From NCBI RefSeq assembly GCF_964204865.1, contig NC_135257.1, positions 16,926,001 to 16,990,000 on the forward strand: DNA of 64,000 nucleotides, written 5' to 3'. This document shows, one piece after another, positions 36,301-64,000 of the stretch (position 1 is its first letter; each line of letters begins with the position of its first letter). Source of the stretch: Styela clava (Eukaryota). The position numbers are program-made.

Positions 36301-39300
36301 TAGGTACGTAGGTAGCGCCAACTCACTGAGTGTGCACCTCATCCAACAAGTTTATTTATTTTTGTTTTAATTTACATTTGTATGCTGAATTTTATGACAT
36401 AGTGAACATTTTTAGCGTTTTTAAATTTTATTTGCTAGTAGTCGAGTGGGAACTTTTATTCCACTCCGATACATCTGCAATTTCTAATATTAAGCAGGTT
36501 ATATCAATACGCCATTTCGTCGGCATCCACGAAACTACTAGCAAAATAACCAGCAAGGCTTGGAAATGGAAGTATATTTGGATTCAAAATGACGATTAAA
36601 ACATCAAAAACTACACATTGTATCATTATGCTGAACAAAATTGAAGTATTTCAATAAAACAACTAGAAATAATGGAACTAGCACTTGGACGCAAAACAAT
36701 AGTGAATACAGCACAACACAAAGCTGAAGCACAACTATTGACTGCAACTCATGCGGCATAATCAAATAAACTCTTTATTTAATCAAGACAGATCGGGATT
36801 ATTAACTTGGTTAAAATATTTGCAATCGAAGTATTGATAATATAGAATATAGGACAGAAATGGACGAAGAACGGATAACTGAACGTCAAACTGAATTTCA
36901 CTTTTGAGCTAAATAGCAATAATCAATGATAACATCCAAAGATTTATTTCATCCTTTTATATCAGAATTGTCTGCCCGTGATTGAGACATCCACAGATAA
37001 GCTGCCGAATAACAGTAGTTTGGGTCGCACCGCCCAGCAGCTCCGTGAAGTCCCTAAATTAAAAGATATTTTCAACATATTTCTGACAATTTACCGAAGG
37101 TTTGCAAAAATAGATGATGCGAGCCATTAATACAAAATGATTTCAAGTAATTTCGTTCATCTGAGTTTAACAATAACGGCCATCGACAACTTTGCAACGC
37201 AAAAAAGTCTTAGATGTGATTTTCAAATGGTATGATAGTGCTTTGTAATTTGATCTCCGGACCTTACTTTTCTCGGCGCTCTGAAATGTGTGCACCAAGA
37301 TGTCGCACAACCTGAACCCTCACCTGGTACAACTACTATGTTCAGGTTGTGCGCCATCTTGGTGCACATACTTCTGGAGGTCCCTCTTCTCATGAGTCGA
37401 ACTAGCCTGTCTATGTCATTTTAAAGTGTGGAAAAACAATTTAAATGCAATCTTTTTCAAATTATACAGTAATTTTACTATAATGTTGAGTCTTTGAGTC
37501 CTACGTTTAGAATCCTCCACAACAAGAGTTTTCAAACTGGGGTACATGTATTCCCAGATTTACATTTCAATATACTTTTTAACGGGTAAATTAAATTTAG
37601 TATAAGAATGTTCTTTTTATAATCCTCTAATCTGCCTGAAAATATCTTTATCACCTGATGTTAAATACCTTGAAGACTTGAATTTATGAATTCTTTAGGA
37701 AGTAGAAGTTTTAACTACAACTACAGTAACTACCAAGTATACATTCGCAGTTCACAGGACTCTCTTTGTCTAATAACAGCACGTGAGGTCATTTTAGAAG
37801 TGCACGAGCAAATTTATGAATGTCCAAAGGATACCAATAAACAGAAAGTTTGAAAAGCCTGCTTTCTAATCACAAACTCACTTGATAATGAATAGGTAGC
37901 TCAATGAGTCGCAATAAGTATTTTACGGAGATTTTATTTGAAGCTAAAGTGTGAAATATAGAAAAATTACCCTTGCTCCTGGGAGTCCGGGACGTCCACG
38001 CTCGCCAGGTAATCCTACATCTCCTTTGTGTCCTGGTGTTCCATGAACAGTTTCACCAGGAGGACCACGGATTCCTGGTATTCCTTGCGTACCTGGTATC
38101 CCATATCCGTGGCTTCCCCGTTCTCCTCTTTCACCTTTGGGACCTGAAGTATGAGTCGGTATTCGGTTATTTTAGTTTTTACATCATTGGTGAAGCGACT
38201 AATAGATAATAGAAAAAAAAACGAGGAGAGAAGAACGATCACCGATCAATAGTCAACTTACCGTGAATTGTGGAAATTATTATAAATACTCAATGACGTC
38301 AATTGAGCTATCTTAGATAAGCCAGGCTTGTCCATGGGACATATTTTTCTCTCCCATTCCCATCCCACCTACAGCAATTATGCCTGTCCCATCCCATCTC
38401 ATGGGATTCCCATTGGAATACAATTCAATAAAAATTGTTAAATTTAGGTTTAGCGACTACTAAATAGGACTACCTGTACAAAAAGACATGCAAAACAACA
38501 AAATTTACTGACTTCGTTAACTTTATATTCACAATTACTATACATGTTTCCATCGGCCCCTTCACGAAGTATATTGTTAATGTTGAATATATTTTGCTCT
38601 TTATAACCGACAAGATAGTTATGCTCAAATATATGAACACGAAGTTTATAACAAGTGTTTTATCATCATTTCCCGAAAAATCATACGGTTTTCGTGTCCC
38701 ATGGGAAGTACAAATGTGTGCTGTCCCATCCAATCTCATCCCATGGGACGTTTCCCATAGGAATCCCATTCCCACGAACAAGCCTGTAGGAACCTATGTA
38801 TTTTGCCATTTCAAAACGATATGAACAAATATAAATATATACGTATTTTAACCTCTTTGTCCAACGGGGCCAACTTCTCCAACTGGTCCTTGCATTCCAC
38901 GCGGCCCAGGTATTCCTTGTAGTCCAGATTGACCACGTGCACCTTGTATCCCAATACTCCCTGACAACCCACGAGAACCTTTTGGTCCTCGATACATCTC
39001 TGTGAAGGTTGAGCTTTCTAACAGCATCGTTACTATTCGGGGCACTTCTCCTACAATCAAATAAATTGGTATTTATTTATAAATGAAATATATTGAGATA
39101 ATGGACAGGTAATTGATACAAGCATTTACGCACAGTCAGTTTGAATCTGACCGGTATTGCCTTCTATAGTATTCACTCAAGTCCTTTTACGTGGTTTTGC
39201 ACTTTTAGGACTTTGCAACATTGGCGTTCGTGAATGCAAAAAAGAATAATGATATTTAAAACGATCGGAGAGCTTATTACTATATCGAAACAAGCCAATA

Positions 39301-42300
39301 GTAAAATTTATGAAACAAATTAAACACAGAACATTTAATCCCGATCTTACGCTTTCTCTTTTTTATCACACCTCATGGCAAACTTATATAAAGTTTTTAA
39401 AATCGTTTATGCAAGACGCAGCTGTAACAAATATATGGATAGAACTTACGATTAATCATGTTTCGACATTCTGTTTGTGCGATGGTTTCCATTCTGGCAT
39501 CTGATGCTGCCTAAGATTCAAAACATTTATATCAAAGAGATTCATTACTATAAGAAACAACAAAAACTGAATTCTTGTCTAGTGCTGGTATTGCAGTCAA
39601 TGAAAATTACAGAAATGTTGGGAGGCCGAGCAATAGTATGAGTGATAAAGGTGTATTGGCATTCATTACACTAAAGCTTGTAATATTAAATTTTCACAAA
39701 CCAAATATTGAGGTTATATGAATAAAACAAAACGATAGCTAATGATCATGAATCAGTATTTAAAAAAATTTGCATGAAGACCCGGGTTGTCCAAGGTAGT
39801 CGACTACGGGGGCCACAAAATTATTTTTTCATTGTTCGCGAGCCACAATAGTGCCAAGAAAAGGTAAACAGTGCAATGCAAAACAAACACTTTTATTGTG
39901 CAAACACATTGATCAATATTTGTCATTTATCAAATTAACAAGCAAAAACCACCAAAAAACATACTAAAACTTGCAAAGTCTTCTTATATCTAAATTTAGT
40001 GCATGATTTCAAACTCTACATAATGGAAAAAGTGCTTTCGGACATCGATTTTCAAAGCAAAATCTTAACTTTTGAAAATGCTCACAAGCTTCTAAAATGC
40101 CGTTATAAATTATATTTTTTTGTCACCGACACAACTTGCCAACATATTATGCATTGTGGTATTTTCCCTCCCACATCCAGTTAAAAACCTGTTTGAATTC
40201 GTCACCTTTCCTTTCAAACTCATGTTTACAAAATCACTTACATGTAACTGCAGATTGATAGATTACCGAATGTGAGGTACAGGATGTGGTTCCGACATAT
40301 AAGCAGCATTTTTTGTAATACTGTTTATGATGGTTGCAAAAAACACCAGGCATGATTTATGTTGTTAGGCCACAACATTAATATTTAGTTATCTGGCATA
40401 GCCAACCTAAGCTAATAGAATCCGCATTCAATTTTTACTTTTCTATGATGCCAAAATTGTTAGCATATATCCCAGACCAAAAAGATAGAAGGCCAGATAA
40501 CAATTTATACTGCCAAGCACATAATTCAACTTTGCTAGTTGCCTCAGCTACTCATAACAATAGTCAATTCAGTGACATTAGTGATGTAACAATAAGTCAA
40601 ACAATTTTCTGGTTGATTTTATGGTGGAAAAACACCAAATACGATTTTTTTCTGCGGGCCACAGATAATGAAGCCTTGGGCCACATGTGGACCCCCCTAA
40701 ATTGTAGACGCATAAAAATGCCATAAAAAATTCGATGCTTGGCAGAATTCCTCACAATACCACTTTTGTTTAAAAAAACATGCATTCTATTTACCATCCC
40801 GAACGCTTTCTGGCCGCGTATACTTTGACCAGATGATATCCCAGGTAATCCAGGAGGACCTGGCGGTCCAGGTGGTCCACGGGGGCCAGTAGCTCCTATT
40901 CCACTTCCTGCTGCACCGGCACCTCCACCGGGAGGTCCGGCCGGTCCCACATCACCCTGAATAAAAAAAGGATATTTTAAAACCCTTCAAAATAATTGAA
41001 GTATATTGAAATACTTTTCATTTTTGTATACACTTCGTGGTCGCCATTTTTTGTCTTATTAATGGAACTAACATTTCTTTCAGAACCACCGAGGGCGCAC
41101 GAGTACAGTCGGAATTCATTTGCTTTTCAGCTGTGTTAAGATAGGGATGTAACTGTTATTGTAATGTGATATTATTACCGATTAAAATCGATAAGTGACA
41201 ACCTACCTTTTCGCCTTTGCTACCGGGTACTCCACGAAATCCATCTAGACCCTGAACAAAAATGTTTATTATTGAATTATTTTTTTTTTCAAACCTGACC
41301 AAATAAAATGTTCAACTTTTTCTCAATATAGCTCAAGCAGGTTTTGATTTACATTTAGTATAAATATTGATATTTAATCCAACAGTACAATCGCTTTTTT
41401 AAATGCTTCAATGATTTGATTAAAGTTTCTAGGCAACTTGCCTTAGAACCCTTTTCACCACTTAATCCTTGTGGGCCAGAGGGACCTGCTGGACCAATTG
41501 GTCCAGGAGGGCAATTGCATTCCTCTTTTTGTATGATAATCCCAGTCGTTCCTCCACCTCCACCTGCTGATGATGGTACTTTTTCTTCTAAGTCAAGCTT
41601 TGGAGTGGATTCAGGGGCATCGATAACTTCTCCGATGCACTGAAAATACATTTTAAAATGATTATTCTTTACCCTAATGCAGTGAAGGCTAGAAACACAA
41701 ACAACTGATAGCGATTATATTGCCTTGTTAAATGTATATTAGCACCTTTATTACAAAAACTTCCAAAACGTTTAGTAGTTTGATGCAGGTCGAATTTATT
41801 AAAATCTGGATTTAAAATTCTTTGCATTTTCACTGCAAGCACAAGACACTTCTTTTATGCAAGTTTTTCTCCGGTAAATTTCGAAATTTCAATTAAATGT
41901 GGAAAGAATAGTGTGGATACATAAATGCAGGTTGCAGCTGACGAGCTATGAACTTTATATGGGTTTATCTTTGCAACGAGACGCCAGTCAATAACGATTT
42001 TTTTCAACTCACCTCTTTCCCTTTATATCCCTTCACGTCACAACAGCCTTCCATATAATTTTGAATTTCACCGCCTGATCCGCATAATATGTCGAGTCGT
42101 TGAATATCGAACTAAACAAAATTGAAAAGAACTAGTGATAAGTAATTGATAAATATAACTGAATACTAGAGTGTTAAATATGTTGCCCTGTTCTTCTTAT
42201 GTATGGTATATTCACAACTTAAATTGATTTTAAAAGTTATTGCCTGATTTTACATCGTATTTGTTGATTTATCTTGTGTTTCACTGATTTTGGTTATCGA

Positions 42301-63300: not shown

Positions 63301-64000
63301 TGCACTGATTTTTGTATATTTTTCTCCAATCTCAAAACTGTTTGCAATGTTTTTCATCCATGTTCTTACATTCTTGACATCTTCTTCCGATATCGGCTGA
63401 GATCTAAATGTTCAGTATCAATTAGAAAAATGTTAAACTGTGTACCAAACAAAAATATGTCGCCTTTAAAAAACCGATATGACAGCATATTTTGTCTAGG
63501 ATTTGTTTTATACGTTGCTCAAGTGGCGCAATCGGTTAGCGCGCCGTACTTATATTACAGATACGGAGCAGCGCGGAGGTTGTGAGTTCGAACCTCACCT
63601 GGAGCACGAATTTTTCTACTAAACGTATCTCAGACATCATAAACGAAAACCTTCATAATTAAAAGTAATCGATGATCTCTACAACACAGTGGAATTAGAA
63701 TATTATGCAGTTAAGTAACAACCAAGCGAACAATATGAAAGTGGCTGGCTGCTAAGTCGATGCCAAAACTCAGAGTGGCACCTCTAATCTGATTTTGACT
63801 TATCTACCCAAGGTATAAAAGCTACAAGCTATATCAAAAAAGGGTTAAAGAAAATTAGTTGCCAATGTCAACATTTTTGTGACTGGGAACTTTTTTTTAC
63901 AAAAGGTAAACTTTGAAATATTCGTTTCATCAATGACAGGTTATTTGTTAGGGAGTCTATTGTTAAATATATTTATTATGGATAATTGTATAACTGTTGG

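What the first reader, a model, noticed from the sequence alone, without database searches (positions are those of the whole stretch)
36949..63403. Collagen with an unusual architecture: >=5 tandem vWA domains on a miniature FACIT tail
Seen: 31 exons join in one frame to give vWA-A (63403-60361), B (59663-57762), C (57189-52520), D (52127-49106) and E (48534-46802), then TSPN (45910-42013), a COL2 of only ~75 aa, an NC2 helix (RMETIAQTECRNMI), a ~112-aa COL1 with the two FACIT imperfections (G-Y-G, G-ETVH-G), and GRCDPNYC..KG. Known: vertebrate COL21/COL22 carry one vWA, COL12/14/20 mix vWA with FN3 arrays, and long pure vWA arrays typify collagen VI, which lacks TSPN and the FACIT tail. Inference: a collagen-VI-like head on a minimal FACIT trimerisation tail, possibly a lineage-specific matrix adaptor.
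Basis: partly seen in the sequence, partly recalled or inferred. Interest (0 to 1): 0.68.

Follow-up and report, generated by a model that had tools for sequence, protein, structure and literature searches.

The report
Sea-squirt FACIT collagen with six vWA domains
This is a real gene of the sea squirt Styela clava for a fibril-associated (FACIT-type) collagen chain that has a row of six von Willebrand A domains in front of a very short collagen tail; public annotation already predicts it but calls it collagen VI-like.

Summary
The window is Styela clava, a tunicate, and I do not take it for human. The 31 minus-strand exons (63403..36949) match residues 243-1726 of the public NCBI model 'collagen alpha-6(VI) chain-like isoform X1' (1726 aa). 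All 30 introns are GT-AG (28) or GC-AG (2), and every reader boundary I checked is a true splice site.

The window holds five vWA modules. A sixth module and the apparent signal peptide lie beyond the window edge. No FN3 domain was found.

Tested exon by exon, the tail is FACIT-type:
- TSPN exons match FACIT TSPN profiles.
- A C-x-C-P-P-G junction opens the collagenous part.
- COL2 is 75 aa, NC2 56 aa and COL1 110 aa.
- The two COL1 breaks lie 15 and 10 triplets before G-R-C-D-P-N-Y-C; most collagen XXI sequences have 15 and 9.

The closest named relatives are vertebrate collagen XXI chains. Collagen VI membership fails: there is no long helix and no C-terminal vWA.

Modules B and D are only weakly supported as vWA at exon level. 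Only module C keeps a full metal-binding site.

No relative with this architecture and no paper describing it turned up, but both searches were limited. I rate it a new variant of a known kind, of modest interest.

The parts
63250..63403 (-). exon 1, vWA-A part (first strand of A lies beyond the window)
   Evidence: Exact match to P0001 from residue 243. AG at 63405-63404. Pfam VWA 1.1e-05, profile 9-57. Collagen XXI profile 6.6e-10.
62697..62814 (-). exon 2, vWA-A
   Evidence: Exact match. GC donor. No Pfam VWA hit.
61271..61395 (-). exon 3, vWA-A
   Evidence: Exact match. Pfam VWA 0.028-0.047, profile 100-137, below cut-off.
60361..60511 (-). exon 4, vWA-A end (phase-1 border)
   Evidence: Exact match. 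Collagen XXI profile 1.4e-04, positions 171-216. Similar to exon 11, E 3.5e-05.
59472..59663 (-). exon 5, vWA-B start
   Evidence: Exact match. No Pfam hit. Collagen XXI profile 1.1e-05, positions 34-86. Similar to exon 8, E 3.2e-05.
58821..58945 (-). exon 6, vWA-B
   Evidence: Exact match. No family hit at exon level.
57762..57987 (-). exon 7, vWA-B end, His/Trp/Gly-rich and divergent
   Evidence: Exact match. No family hit at exon level.
57049..57189 (-). exon 8, vWA-C start (DGSSS, metal-site motif)
   Evidence: Pfam VWA 1.8e-08, profile 1-41. Collagen XXI profile 2.9e-09.
53806..53996 (-). exon 9, vWA-C
   Evidence: Pfam VWA 5.8e-11, profile 41-106. PDB hits: collagen VI alpha3, vWF, integrin alpha1/alpha2. 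Collagen XXI profile 1.6e-09.
53252..53344 (-). exon 10, vWA-C (LTDG strand)
   Evidence: Pfam VWA 0.013. Collagen XXI profile 1.2e-05.
52520..52679 (-). exon 11, vWA-C end
   Evidence: Pfam VWA 3.7e-07, profile 132-172. Collagen XXI profile 2.1e-10.
51959..52127 (-). exon 12, vWA-D start
   Evidence: Exact match. Pfam VWA 0.013, profile 3-50, below cut-off.
50717..50876 (-). exon 13, vWA-D
   Evidence: Exact match. No family hit.
49813..49944 (-). exon 14, vWA-D
   Evidence: Exact match. No family hit. The phase-0 intron before it sits at the same alignment column as in modules B and C.
49106..49214 (-). exon 15, vWA-D end
   Evidence: Exact match. No family hit.
48350..48534 (-). exon 16, vWA-E start
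   Evidence: Pfam VWA 4.9e-04, profile 2-37. Collagen XXI profile 5e-05.
47697..47903 (-). exon 17, vWA-E
   Evidence: Pfam VWA 0.0032, profile 81-124.
46802..46994 (-). exon 18, vWA-E end
   Evidence: Exact match. No family hit.
46348..46392 (-). exon 19, 45-nt linker between vWA-E and TSPN, phase 1 on both sides
   Evidence: Exact match.
45778..45910 (-). exon 20, presumed first TSPN exon
   Evidence: Exact match. No significant hit at exon level.
44766..44942 (-). exon 21, TSPN
   Evidence: Library search: P0002 at 4.4e-05. Profile of the P0002 TSPN repeats 3e-10, positions 49-101. Collagen XXI profile 6.2e-04, positions 273-312.
43903..44040 (-). exon 22, TSPN
   Evidence: Profile of the P0002 TSPN repeats 4e-09, positions 113-149. 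Collagen XXI profile 8.1e-06, positions 338-374.
42728..42815 (-). exon 23, presumed TSPN
   Evidence: Exact match. Not significant at exon level.
42013..42111 (-). exon 24, TSPN last strand (FDIQRLDILC)
   Evidence: Collagen XXI profile 0.016, positions 406-431, over 'ldiqklriycdP'.
41442..41639 (-). exon 25, acidic/Gly linker, C-N-C-P-P-G junction and start of COL2
   Evidence: Collagen XXI profile 4.4e-06, positions 440-470, over 'CaCPPG'. GC donor.
41207..41251 (-). exon 26, 45-nt COL2 exon
   Evidence: Exact match. Gly-X-Y.
40795..40956 (-). exon 27, end of COL2 (two register breaks) and start of NC2
   Evidence: Pfam Collagen 0.067. Breaks at residues 1507 and 1514.
39450..39510 (-). exon 28, NC2 with Cys1563
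   Evidence: Exact match. Motif C-x2-h-h-x3-h-P-x-h-h shared with 11 of 12 collagen XXI sequences and with P0002; the pattern was drawn after seeing them.
38853..39050 (-). exon 29, end of NC2 and first half of COL1
   Evidence: Pfam Collagen 8.8e-09. PDB matches fall only in its collagen part.
37971..38143 (-). exon 30, COL1 with the breaks G-Y-G and G-ETVH-G
   Evidence: Pfam Collagen 2.8e-08. Best single PDB stretch is collagen IX alpha2, 9wxp_CK 110-164. Best named relatives are collagen XXI. Collagen XXI profile 874-931, 1.3e-09.
36949..37053 (-). exon 31, end of COL1, G-R-C-D-P-N-Y-C, 27-aa NC1, stop TGA 36951-36949
   Evidence: Collagen XXI profile 0.0025, positions 930-947, over 'GicdpslC'. 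Stop codon and AATAAA at 36948. No PDB match.

Best explanation
Window 63403-36949 (minus strand) holds 31 of the exons of one Styela clava gene for a FACIT-class collagen alpha chain.

Architecture (shown by sequence). In the public model the chain reads:
- an N-terminus that looks like a signal peptide (by eye);
- six tandem vWA modules, five of them in the window;
- a 15-residue linker;
- a TSPN (laminin-G-like) domain;
- a C-x-C-P-P-G junction;
- COL2 (75 aa), NC2 (56 aa) and COL1 (110 aa) with the two FACIT breaks;
- G-R-C-D-P-N-Y-C and a 27-aa NC1.

Mechanism (inferred from what is known of collagens IX, XII, XIV, XIX and XXI).
- Three chains register and trimerise through NC2.
- COL1 and COL2 fold into short triple helices, locked by disulfides at the C-x-C and G-x-C-x4-C sites.
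- The COL1 end lies on the surface of collagen fibrils.
- The three arms, each with six vWA modules and one TSPN, project outward and bridge to other matrix molecules or cells.

Further inferences.
- Only module C keeps the full D-x-S-x-S / T / D metal site. There is therefore probably one metal-dependent binding site per arm, with the other modules acting as spacers or metal-independent binders.
- Every vWA module is bounded by phase-1 introns, so modules could be skipped without breaking the frame. Shorter isoforms are possible, as in collagen XII.
- In evolutionary terms it is best read as a vWA-TSPN FACIT (the collagen XXI/XXII/XII/XIV kind) whose vWA was multiplied and whose COL2 is short.
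For: Gene structure.
- The exons map exactly onto an independent public model. There are 30 of 30 canonical introns and 1484 codons.
- Phase-1 introns lie at all six module borders.

vWA modules.
- Pfam VWA hits (E up to 0.05) occur in 9 of the 18 vWA exons, 4 of them above the curated cut-off.
- The collagen XXI profile hits 8 of the 18. The union is 11 of 18.
- The six modules align collinearly at 8-28% identity.
- Modules B, C and D share a phase-0 intron at the same alignment column.

TSPN.
- Exon 21 found only two proteins at E <= 1e-3 among 1.84 billion representatives: the model itself and P0002.
- P0002 has six tandem laminin-G/TSPN repeats and a collagen IX-like tail. Its last repeat matches the solved collagen IX NC4 domain at 4.5e-36.
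- A profile of those repeats hits exons 21 and 22 in collinear order (3e-10 and 4e-09) and none of the other 29 exon peptides (best E 0.64).

Collinearity with collagen XXI. On a profile of 12 collagen XXI chains the exons fall in order:
- vWA at positions 31-218;
- TSPN exons 21, 22 and 24 at 273-431;
- the C-x-C-PPG junction at 440-470;
- COL1 at 874-931;
- NC1 at 930-947.

FACIT marks.
- The COL1 breaks lie 15 triplets (G-x-G) and 10 triplets (G-x4-G) before the G of G-x-C.
- The values are 15 and 9 in 8 of 12 collagen XXI sequences and in P0002.
- G-x-C-x4-C is the FACIT site named in PMC10381214 (passages read).
- The best named relatives of the COL1 exon are collagen alpha-1(XXI) chains, at 6.7e-16.

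No FN3. None in any exon scanned, nor in the model's Pfam list.

Function by analogy.
- Collagen XII has two short helices, binds fibrils through the collagenous part and other matrix molecules through NC3 (PMC10017729, passages).
- NC2 drives trimerisation, and a disulfide closes the end of the last helix (PMC7034273, passages).
Against: - No transcript data could be consulted, so the join between the vWA block and the TSPN-collagen block rests on the public prediction, frame compatibility and the lack of any alternative start.
- Seven of the 18 vWA exons (2, 6, 7, 13, 14, 15, 18) and two of the five TSPN exons (20, 23) have no significant family hit on their own.
- Module D rests on one sub-threshold Pfam hit (0.013), the module alignment and a shared intron position.
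- Module B rests on its first exon only.
- The second COL1 break is shifted by one triplet relative to collagen XXI and P0002.
- The NC2 motif was drawn by eye from the same sequences it was then counted in. The NC2 part of exon 29 and the NC1 exon have no match among solved structures.
- Trimerisation, fibril binding, secretion and isoforms are all inferred; none was tested.
- The vWA tree is unresolved, with end branches of 1.1-4.4 changes per column, so the history of the array is unknown.
Confidence: 0.8

Rival explanations
1. Two neighbouring genes were fused by gene prediction: a secreted multi-vWA protein (exons up to 18) and a small separate TSPN-FACIT collagen (exons 20-31).
For: The only support for the join is the public model and frame compatibility.
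Against: - The introns on either side of the linker exon are only about 400 nt each (409 and 437 nt, from the coordinates), and all three borders are phase 1.
- Between exons 18 and 20 the minus strand holds only two ATG-started open frames of 16 or more codons, 21 and 18 residues long. The TSPN-collagen part would therefore lack a convincing signal-peptide exon.
- vWA followed directly by TSPN is the normal order in collagen XXI.
Confidence: 0.08
2. It is a collagen VI family chain, as the public name 'alpha-6(VI) chain-like' says, forming beaded microfilaments.
For: It has a tandem N-terminal vWA array. The top solved-structure hit of a vWA-C exon is collagen VI alpha3.
Against: - The helices are 75 and 110 aa with an NC2 between them, not one long helix.
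- The chain stops 27 residues after COL1, so there are no C-terminal vWA domains.
- It has TSPN exons, the two FACIT breaks and G-x-C-x4-C.
- The vWA exon scores equally well against collagen XXI.
- The collagen VI hallmarks used here are from my own knowledge, not from a call.
Confidence: 0.03
3. The gene is real and FACIT-type, but modules B and D (and perhaps E) are decayed relics, not folded vWA domains, so the arm has three or four true vWA domains joined by long degenerate linkers.
For: - No exon of B beyond the first, and no exon of D beyond one sub-threshold hit, matches any vWA profile.
- B and D lack both flanking cysteines that modules 0, A, C and E have.
- End branches are 3.3-4.4 changes per column.
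- Exon 7 has an odd His/Trp/Gly-rich stretch.
Against: - Module lengths of 181-196 aa are kept (boundaries as set, from the exon phases).
- The frames are open, and the modules align collinearly, including the first strand and the helix after it.
- A phase-0 intron is shared at the same column by B, C and D.
Confidence: 0.25

Closest known systems
Vertebrate collagen XXI (COL21A1), a FACIT with signal peptide-vWA-TSPN-COL2-NC2-COL1-NC1
   Same: - The domain order is the same, and the exons are collinear with a profile of 12 chains.
- The C-x-C-P-P-G junction, the NC2 Cys motif and C-D-P-x-x-C at NC1 are shared.
- The G-x-G break lies 15 triplets before G-x-C in both.
- It is the best named relative of the COL1 exon.
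- vWA-C is 39% identical to its vWA.
   Different: - Six vWA modules instead of one.
- The distance from the C-x-C junction to the NC2 motif is 109 residues, against 332-353 in the 10 of 12 collagen XXI chains where both marks were found.
- The second break lies at 10 triplets, not 9.
Collagens XII and XIV (FACITs with a large NC3 and two short helices)
   Same: Two short collagenous domains behind a TSPN, and a very large multi-module N-terminal arm. The likely role as a fibril-surface bridge is the same (PMC10017729, passages).
   Different: - Collagen XII mixes 4 vWA with 18 FN3 repeats (PMC10017729). Here no FN3 was found.
- COL2 is 75 aa here. That it is about 150 aa in XII and XIV is recalled, not checked.
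- No XII or XIV sequence was compared directly.
Collagen VI long chains (alpha3, alpha5, alpha6)
   Same: A long pure array of N-terminal vWA modules, most of them without a complete metal site. This is also the source of the public name.
   Different: Collagen VI has no TSPN, one long helix and C-terminal vWA domains (recalled). Here there are TSPN exons, a FACIT tail and an end 27 aa after COL1.
Ciona 'type IX-like' FACIT collagen (Vizzini et al. 2002, 2008)
   Same: A FACIT collagen of an ascidian, so the class is already known in tunicates. I saw these two papers only as entries in reference lists.
   Different: Described as type IX-like. Whether it carries vWA domains I could not check, because neither paper is held.
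P0002, an unnamed 1960-aa protein of the representative library
   Same: It is the only non-self relative of the TSPN exon at E <= 1e-3. It has a FACIT-like tail with breaks at 15 and 9 triplets.
   Different: - It has six tandem TSPN repeats instead of vWA modules.
- It has a long collagenous part.
- It ends G-x-C-x2-C.

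Membership tests
FACIT collagens | TSPN (laminin-G-like) domain directly N-terminal of the collagenous part | tested here: met
   Exons 21, 22 and 24 hit FACIT TSPN profiles in collinear order. Exons 20 and 23 are not significant on their own, so 3 of 5 exons are supported.
FACIT collagens | Two or more short triple-helical domains separated by non-collagenous domains | tested here: met
   COL2 75 aa, NC2 56 aa, COL1 110 aa. Pfam Collagen hits for exons 29 and 30.
FACIT collagens | COL1 of about 100-115 aa with two Gly-X-Y breaks at conserved places (feature recalled; places measured here) | tested here: met
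   The G-x-G break lies 15 triplets before G-x-C, as in 8 of 12 collagen XXI sequences and in P0002. The G-x4-G break lies at 10 triplets against 9. Both breaks align to the collagen XXI profile with a one-triplet gap. A gapless 55-aa match to collagen IX alpha2 puts G-ETVH-G over G-QAIN-G.
FACIT collagens | G-x-C-x4-C at the COL1/NC1 junction (PMC10381214, passage read) | tested here: met
   GRCDPNYC at residues 1699-1706. It aligns with GicdpslC of collagen XXI.
FACIT collagens | NC2 domain that trimerises and registers the chains | tested here: inconclusive
   A Cys-hydrophobic-Pro motif is shared with 11 of 12 collagen XXI sequences and with P0002, but the pattern was drawn after seeing them. 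There is no match to the solved NC2 structures. Trimerisation was not tested.
FACIT collagens | Sits on the surface of collagen fibrils | not testable with these tools
   Needs immuno-electron microscopy or binding assays.
Collagen VI | Single triple helix of about 335 aa (recalled) | tested here: not met
   The helices are 75 and 110 aa, split by a 56-aa NC2.
Collagen VI | vWA domains C-terminal of the helix (recalled) | tested here: not met
   The stop codon lies 27 residues after COL1.
Collagen VI | Tandem N-terminal vWA modules | tested here: met
   Five modules in the window and six in the public model.
Collagen XII/XIV/XX subgroup | FN3 repeats interspersed with vWA in NC3 | tested here: not met
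   No FN3 hit in any exon scanned. PF00041 is absent from the Pfam list of the whole public model.
Collagen XXI/XXII subgroup | vWA immediately followed by TSPN and then collagenous domains, without FN3 | tested here: met
   The order is vWA-E, 15-residue linker, TSPN, and it is collinear with collagen XXI. But there are six vWA modules instead of one, and COL2 is about a quarter as long. Orthology was not tested.

The most novel reading that the evidence does not exclude
This gene is the tunicate counterpart of the whole vertebrate vWA-bearing FACIT group (XII, XIV, XX, XXI, XXII). That would show that vWA-TSPN-COL2-NC2-COL1 was already assembled in the common ancestor of tunicates and vertebrates. 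The sea-squirt lineage would then have built a giant three-armed head by multiplying vWA alone, where vertebrates used FN3 repeats. That is an independent route to a collagen XII-sized bridge. The phase-1 cassettes would allow arms of different length.
Probability: 0.4. Interest if true: 0.5.

Novelty: new variant of a known kind. Interest (0 to 1): 0.35.

Why it matters
- It corrects a misleading automatic name: by its tail and TSPN, the 'collagen VI-like' chain is a FACIT.
- It documents a FACIT architecture not among the vertebrate types: six vWA modules, no FN3, and a COL2 of 75 aa.
- Reviews list FACITs among the matrix novelties that arose in deuterostomes or chordates (PMC3002383, passages). 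A tunicate chain with the collagen XXI domain order bears on when vWA joined the FACIT tail.
- It gives a compact natural case for asking how much collagen helix a fibril-associated bridge needs.
- It is not a new principle. The parts and their likely workings are all known.

Tried and rejected
Searches that found little.
- Word-based protein searches with single exons found only the public model itself: exon 21, 1 hit of 5 candidates; exon 11, 1 of 12.
- The third search, with exon 30, gave 301 hits among 1571 candidates, of which 120 were listed. They were mainly collagens XXVIII, XXI and VII, and no tunicate other than the model itself appeared among the 120. I put the many XXVIII and VII hits down to long helices with many breaks, not to kinship.
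- Pfam and solved structures gave nothing for the TSPN exons on their own or for the NC1 exon.
The other isoforms therefore stayed unseen.

Tree of vWA modules. It used 26 rows: six S. clava modules, 12 collagen XXI, 6 collagen XXVIII and 2 collagen VII. The S. clava modules came out unresolved, with long-branch warnings. It says nothing on the order of duplications, and no collagen VI vWA was on hand to include.

Literature.
- Eight searches found no paper on this gene or on a multi-vWA FACIT in tunicates.
- Huxley-Jones et al. 2007, the collagen XXII paper and the two Vizzini papers are not held, so prior description cannot be excluded.
- Supplements are closed. File S2 of PMC10381214 and Table S3 of PMC3002383 may bear on which animals have FACITs.

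Full report
What the window is.
It has 35% G+C, a CpG observed/expected ratio of 1.00 and a single N run at 10493-10644, far from the finding. One exon of the finding, translated, is 100% identical to a 1726-aa NCBI protein (P0001). That protein is named 'collagen alpha-6(VI) chain-like isoform X1 [Styela clava]' and lies on a 23.8-Mb contig. The window is therefore from a tunicate, and I do not take it for human. The N run was left as it is.

Checking the observation.
- I aligned the public protein to the window locally. Residues 243-1726 map without a mismatch onto 31 minus-strand segments.
- For each of the 30 junctions exactly one donor/acceptor pair reproduces the protein: 28 GT-AG and 2 GC-AG.
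- The exon lengths add up to 1484 codons.
- Exon 1 begins at 63403, behind an AG at 63405-63404. The stop codon is at 36951-36949, with AATAAA right after it.
- Residues 1-242 of the model are not in the window. They comprise an N-terminus that looks like a signal peptide by eye, a further vWA module, and the first strand of vWA-A.
- So '>=5' is right, and the public model has six modules.
- Following the scan's rule, I searched exon by exon. The joined step (search, fold or complex prediction with joined exons) was left out. The public record was used only for local mapping, alignment and counting.

The vWA array.
- Pfam finds VWA (E up to 0.05) in 9 of the 18 vWA exons. Four are above the curated cut-off: exons 1, 8, 9 and 11.
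- A profile I built from 12 collagen XXI chains hits 8 of the 18. The union is 11 of 18.
- Per module the exon support is A 3 of 4, B 1 of 3, C 4 of 4, D 1 of 4 (sub-threshold) and E 2 of 3.
- Exon 5 of module B resembles exon 8 of module C (3.2e-05). Exon 4 of module A resembles exon 11 of module C (3.5e-05).
- The six modules of the public record align collinearly at 8-28% identity.
- All module borders are phase-1 introns. Modules B, C and D share a phase-0 intron at the same alignment column.
- By eye on that alignment, only module C keeps D-x-S-x-S, the Thr and the Asp of the metal site. That motif is recalled, not taken from a call.
- Modules B and D lack the flanking cysteines that the others have.
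- B and D are thus the weak points. A domain-level test would settle them but was left out.

The TSPN.
- On their own the five presumed TSPN exons hit nothing in Pfam or among solved structures.
- A full HMMER pass with exon 21 over 1.84 billion representatives gave two proteins at E <= 1e-3: the model itself and P0002 at 4.4e-05.
- P0002 (1960 aa) has six tandem laminin-G-type repeats and a long collagen ending G-T-C-K-Q-C.
- Its last repeat matches the solved NC4 (TSPN) domain of collagen IX at 4.5e-36. Its tail matches collagen IX chains and the collagen IX NC2 constructs.
- A profile of its six repeats hits exons 21 and 22 at positions 49-101 and 113-149 (3e-10 and 4e-09). None of the other 29 exon peptides scores better than E 0.64.
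- The collagen XXI profile adds exon 24, where FDIQRLDILC lies over 'ldiqklriycdP'.
- Exons 20 and 23 remain unsupported on their own.

The tail.
- COL2 is 75 aa with two register breaks, NC2 is 56 aa, COL1 is 110 aa and NC1 is 27 aa.
- Exon 25 aligns its C-N-C-P-P-G with the C-x-C-P-P-G that opens the collagenous part of collagen XXI (4.4e-06).
- Among solved structures, the best single stretch for exon 30 is the C-terminal piece of collagen IX alpha2: 55 residues without a gap, with G-ETVH-G over G-QAIN-G. The top row by summed score was a repetitive 'spindlefibril' protein, with many weak stretches.
- In the large protein set the best non-self hits of exon 30 are collagen alpha-1(XXI) chains, at 6.7e-16.
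- Counting back from the G of G-x-C, S. clava has its breaks at 15 triplets (G-Y-G) and 10 triplets (G-ETVH-G). Eight of 12 collagen XXI sequences and P0002 have 15 and 9; the other four XXI-type sequences differ.
- GRCDPNYC fits G-x-C-x4-C, the site a review gives as the FACIT hallmark. Echinoderms have G-x-C-x2-C (PMC10381214, passages).
- NC2 shares a Cys-hydrophobic-Pro pattern with 11 of 12 collagen XXI sequences and with P0002. I drew that pattern after seeing them, so it is an observation, not a test.
- The stretch from the C-x-C junction to the NC2 motif is 109 residues here. It is 332-353 in the 10 collagen XXI chains where both marks were found.

What it is.
It is a FACIT-class chain with the domain order of collagen XXI (vWA, TSPN, COL2, NC2, COL1, NC1). 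It has six vWA modules and a short COL2, and no FN3. It fails the collagen VI tests: there is no long helix and nothing follows NC1.

The 'collagen VI-like head' is true only of the tandem layout.
- Exon 9 scores 21.1 bits against a collagen VI alpha3 N-domain and up to 22.3 bits against collagen XXI.
- Module C is 39% identical to the collagen XXI vWA, more than to any sister module.
- A tree of the modules is unresolved.

How it most likely works.
This is inferred from collagens XII and XIX (PMC10017729; PMC7034273).
- NC2 brings three chains into register.
- The two short helices fold and are locked by disulfides at both ends.
- The COL1 end lies on fibrils.
- The three arms of vWA modules and TSPN reach out to other matrix parts.
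- There is probably one metal-dependent site per arm, in module C.
- The phase-1 cassettes allow shorter isoforms.
None of this was tested.

Known or new.
- The sequence is already a public predicted protein, so the gene itself is not new.
- Eight searches of the held papers found nothing on this gene or on a multi-vWA FACIT in tunicates.
- An ascidian type IX-like FACIT is cited in reference lists. The key comparative paper (Huxley-Jones 2007) is not held.
- I rate it a new variant of a known kind, of modest interest.

Limits.
- There were no transcripts, no eukaryotic genomes and no supplements.
- Searches were by single exons, so absence of relatives is weak evidence.

Noticed in passing
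window 63517-63607, + strand: A tRNA gene (Rfam tRNA, 49.8 bits; ARAGORN calls it tRNA-Ile, anticodon TAT; about 90 nt, so probably with an intron). It lies inside the collagen gene's intron just upstream of exon 1, on the opposite strand.
   Followed up: partly
window about 5000-12000 (+), about 18000-26000 and about 26000-34000 (-): Three copies of a zinc carboxypeptidase (M14) gene. The ORF at 7967-8338 hits Pfam Peptidase_M14 at 3.9e-16. The same exon recurs inverted at 22204-22420 and 29852-30061 (81-82% complementary). An 8-kb tandem duplication links the two minus-strand copies, with up to 97% identity in places.
   Followed up: partly
window 51148-51300, 48604-48761, 38469-38629 and relatives at 20141-20293, 35803-35955, 12537-12694, 16132-16289, 11189-11349: Dispersed repeats of about 150-160 nt (75-87% alike) sit in three introns of the collagen gene and in the carboxypeptidase region. 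They are probably a short interspersed or miniature transposable element family. No Rfam family matched them.
   Followed up: no
window 10493-10644: A run of N flanked by an inverted repeat (9380-9542 and 10330-10492, 95% complementary). A second near-perfect hairpin lies at 9722-10105.
   Followed up: no
window 57762-57987 (exon 7): The last exon of vWA-B codes an odd His/Trp/Gly-rich stretch where the other modules have the final strands and helices. Nothing matched it at exon level.
   Followed up: partly
P0002 (representative library, not in the window): An unnamed 1960-aa collagen with six tandem TSPN repeats in front of a collagen IX-like tail. It looks like another unusual FACIT architecture, with TSPN multiplied instead of vWA.
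   Followed up: partly
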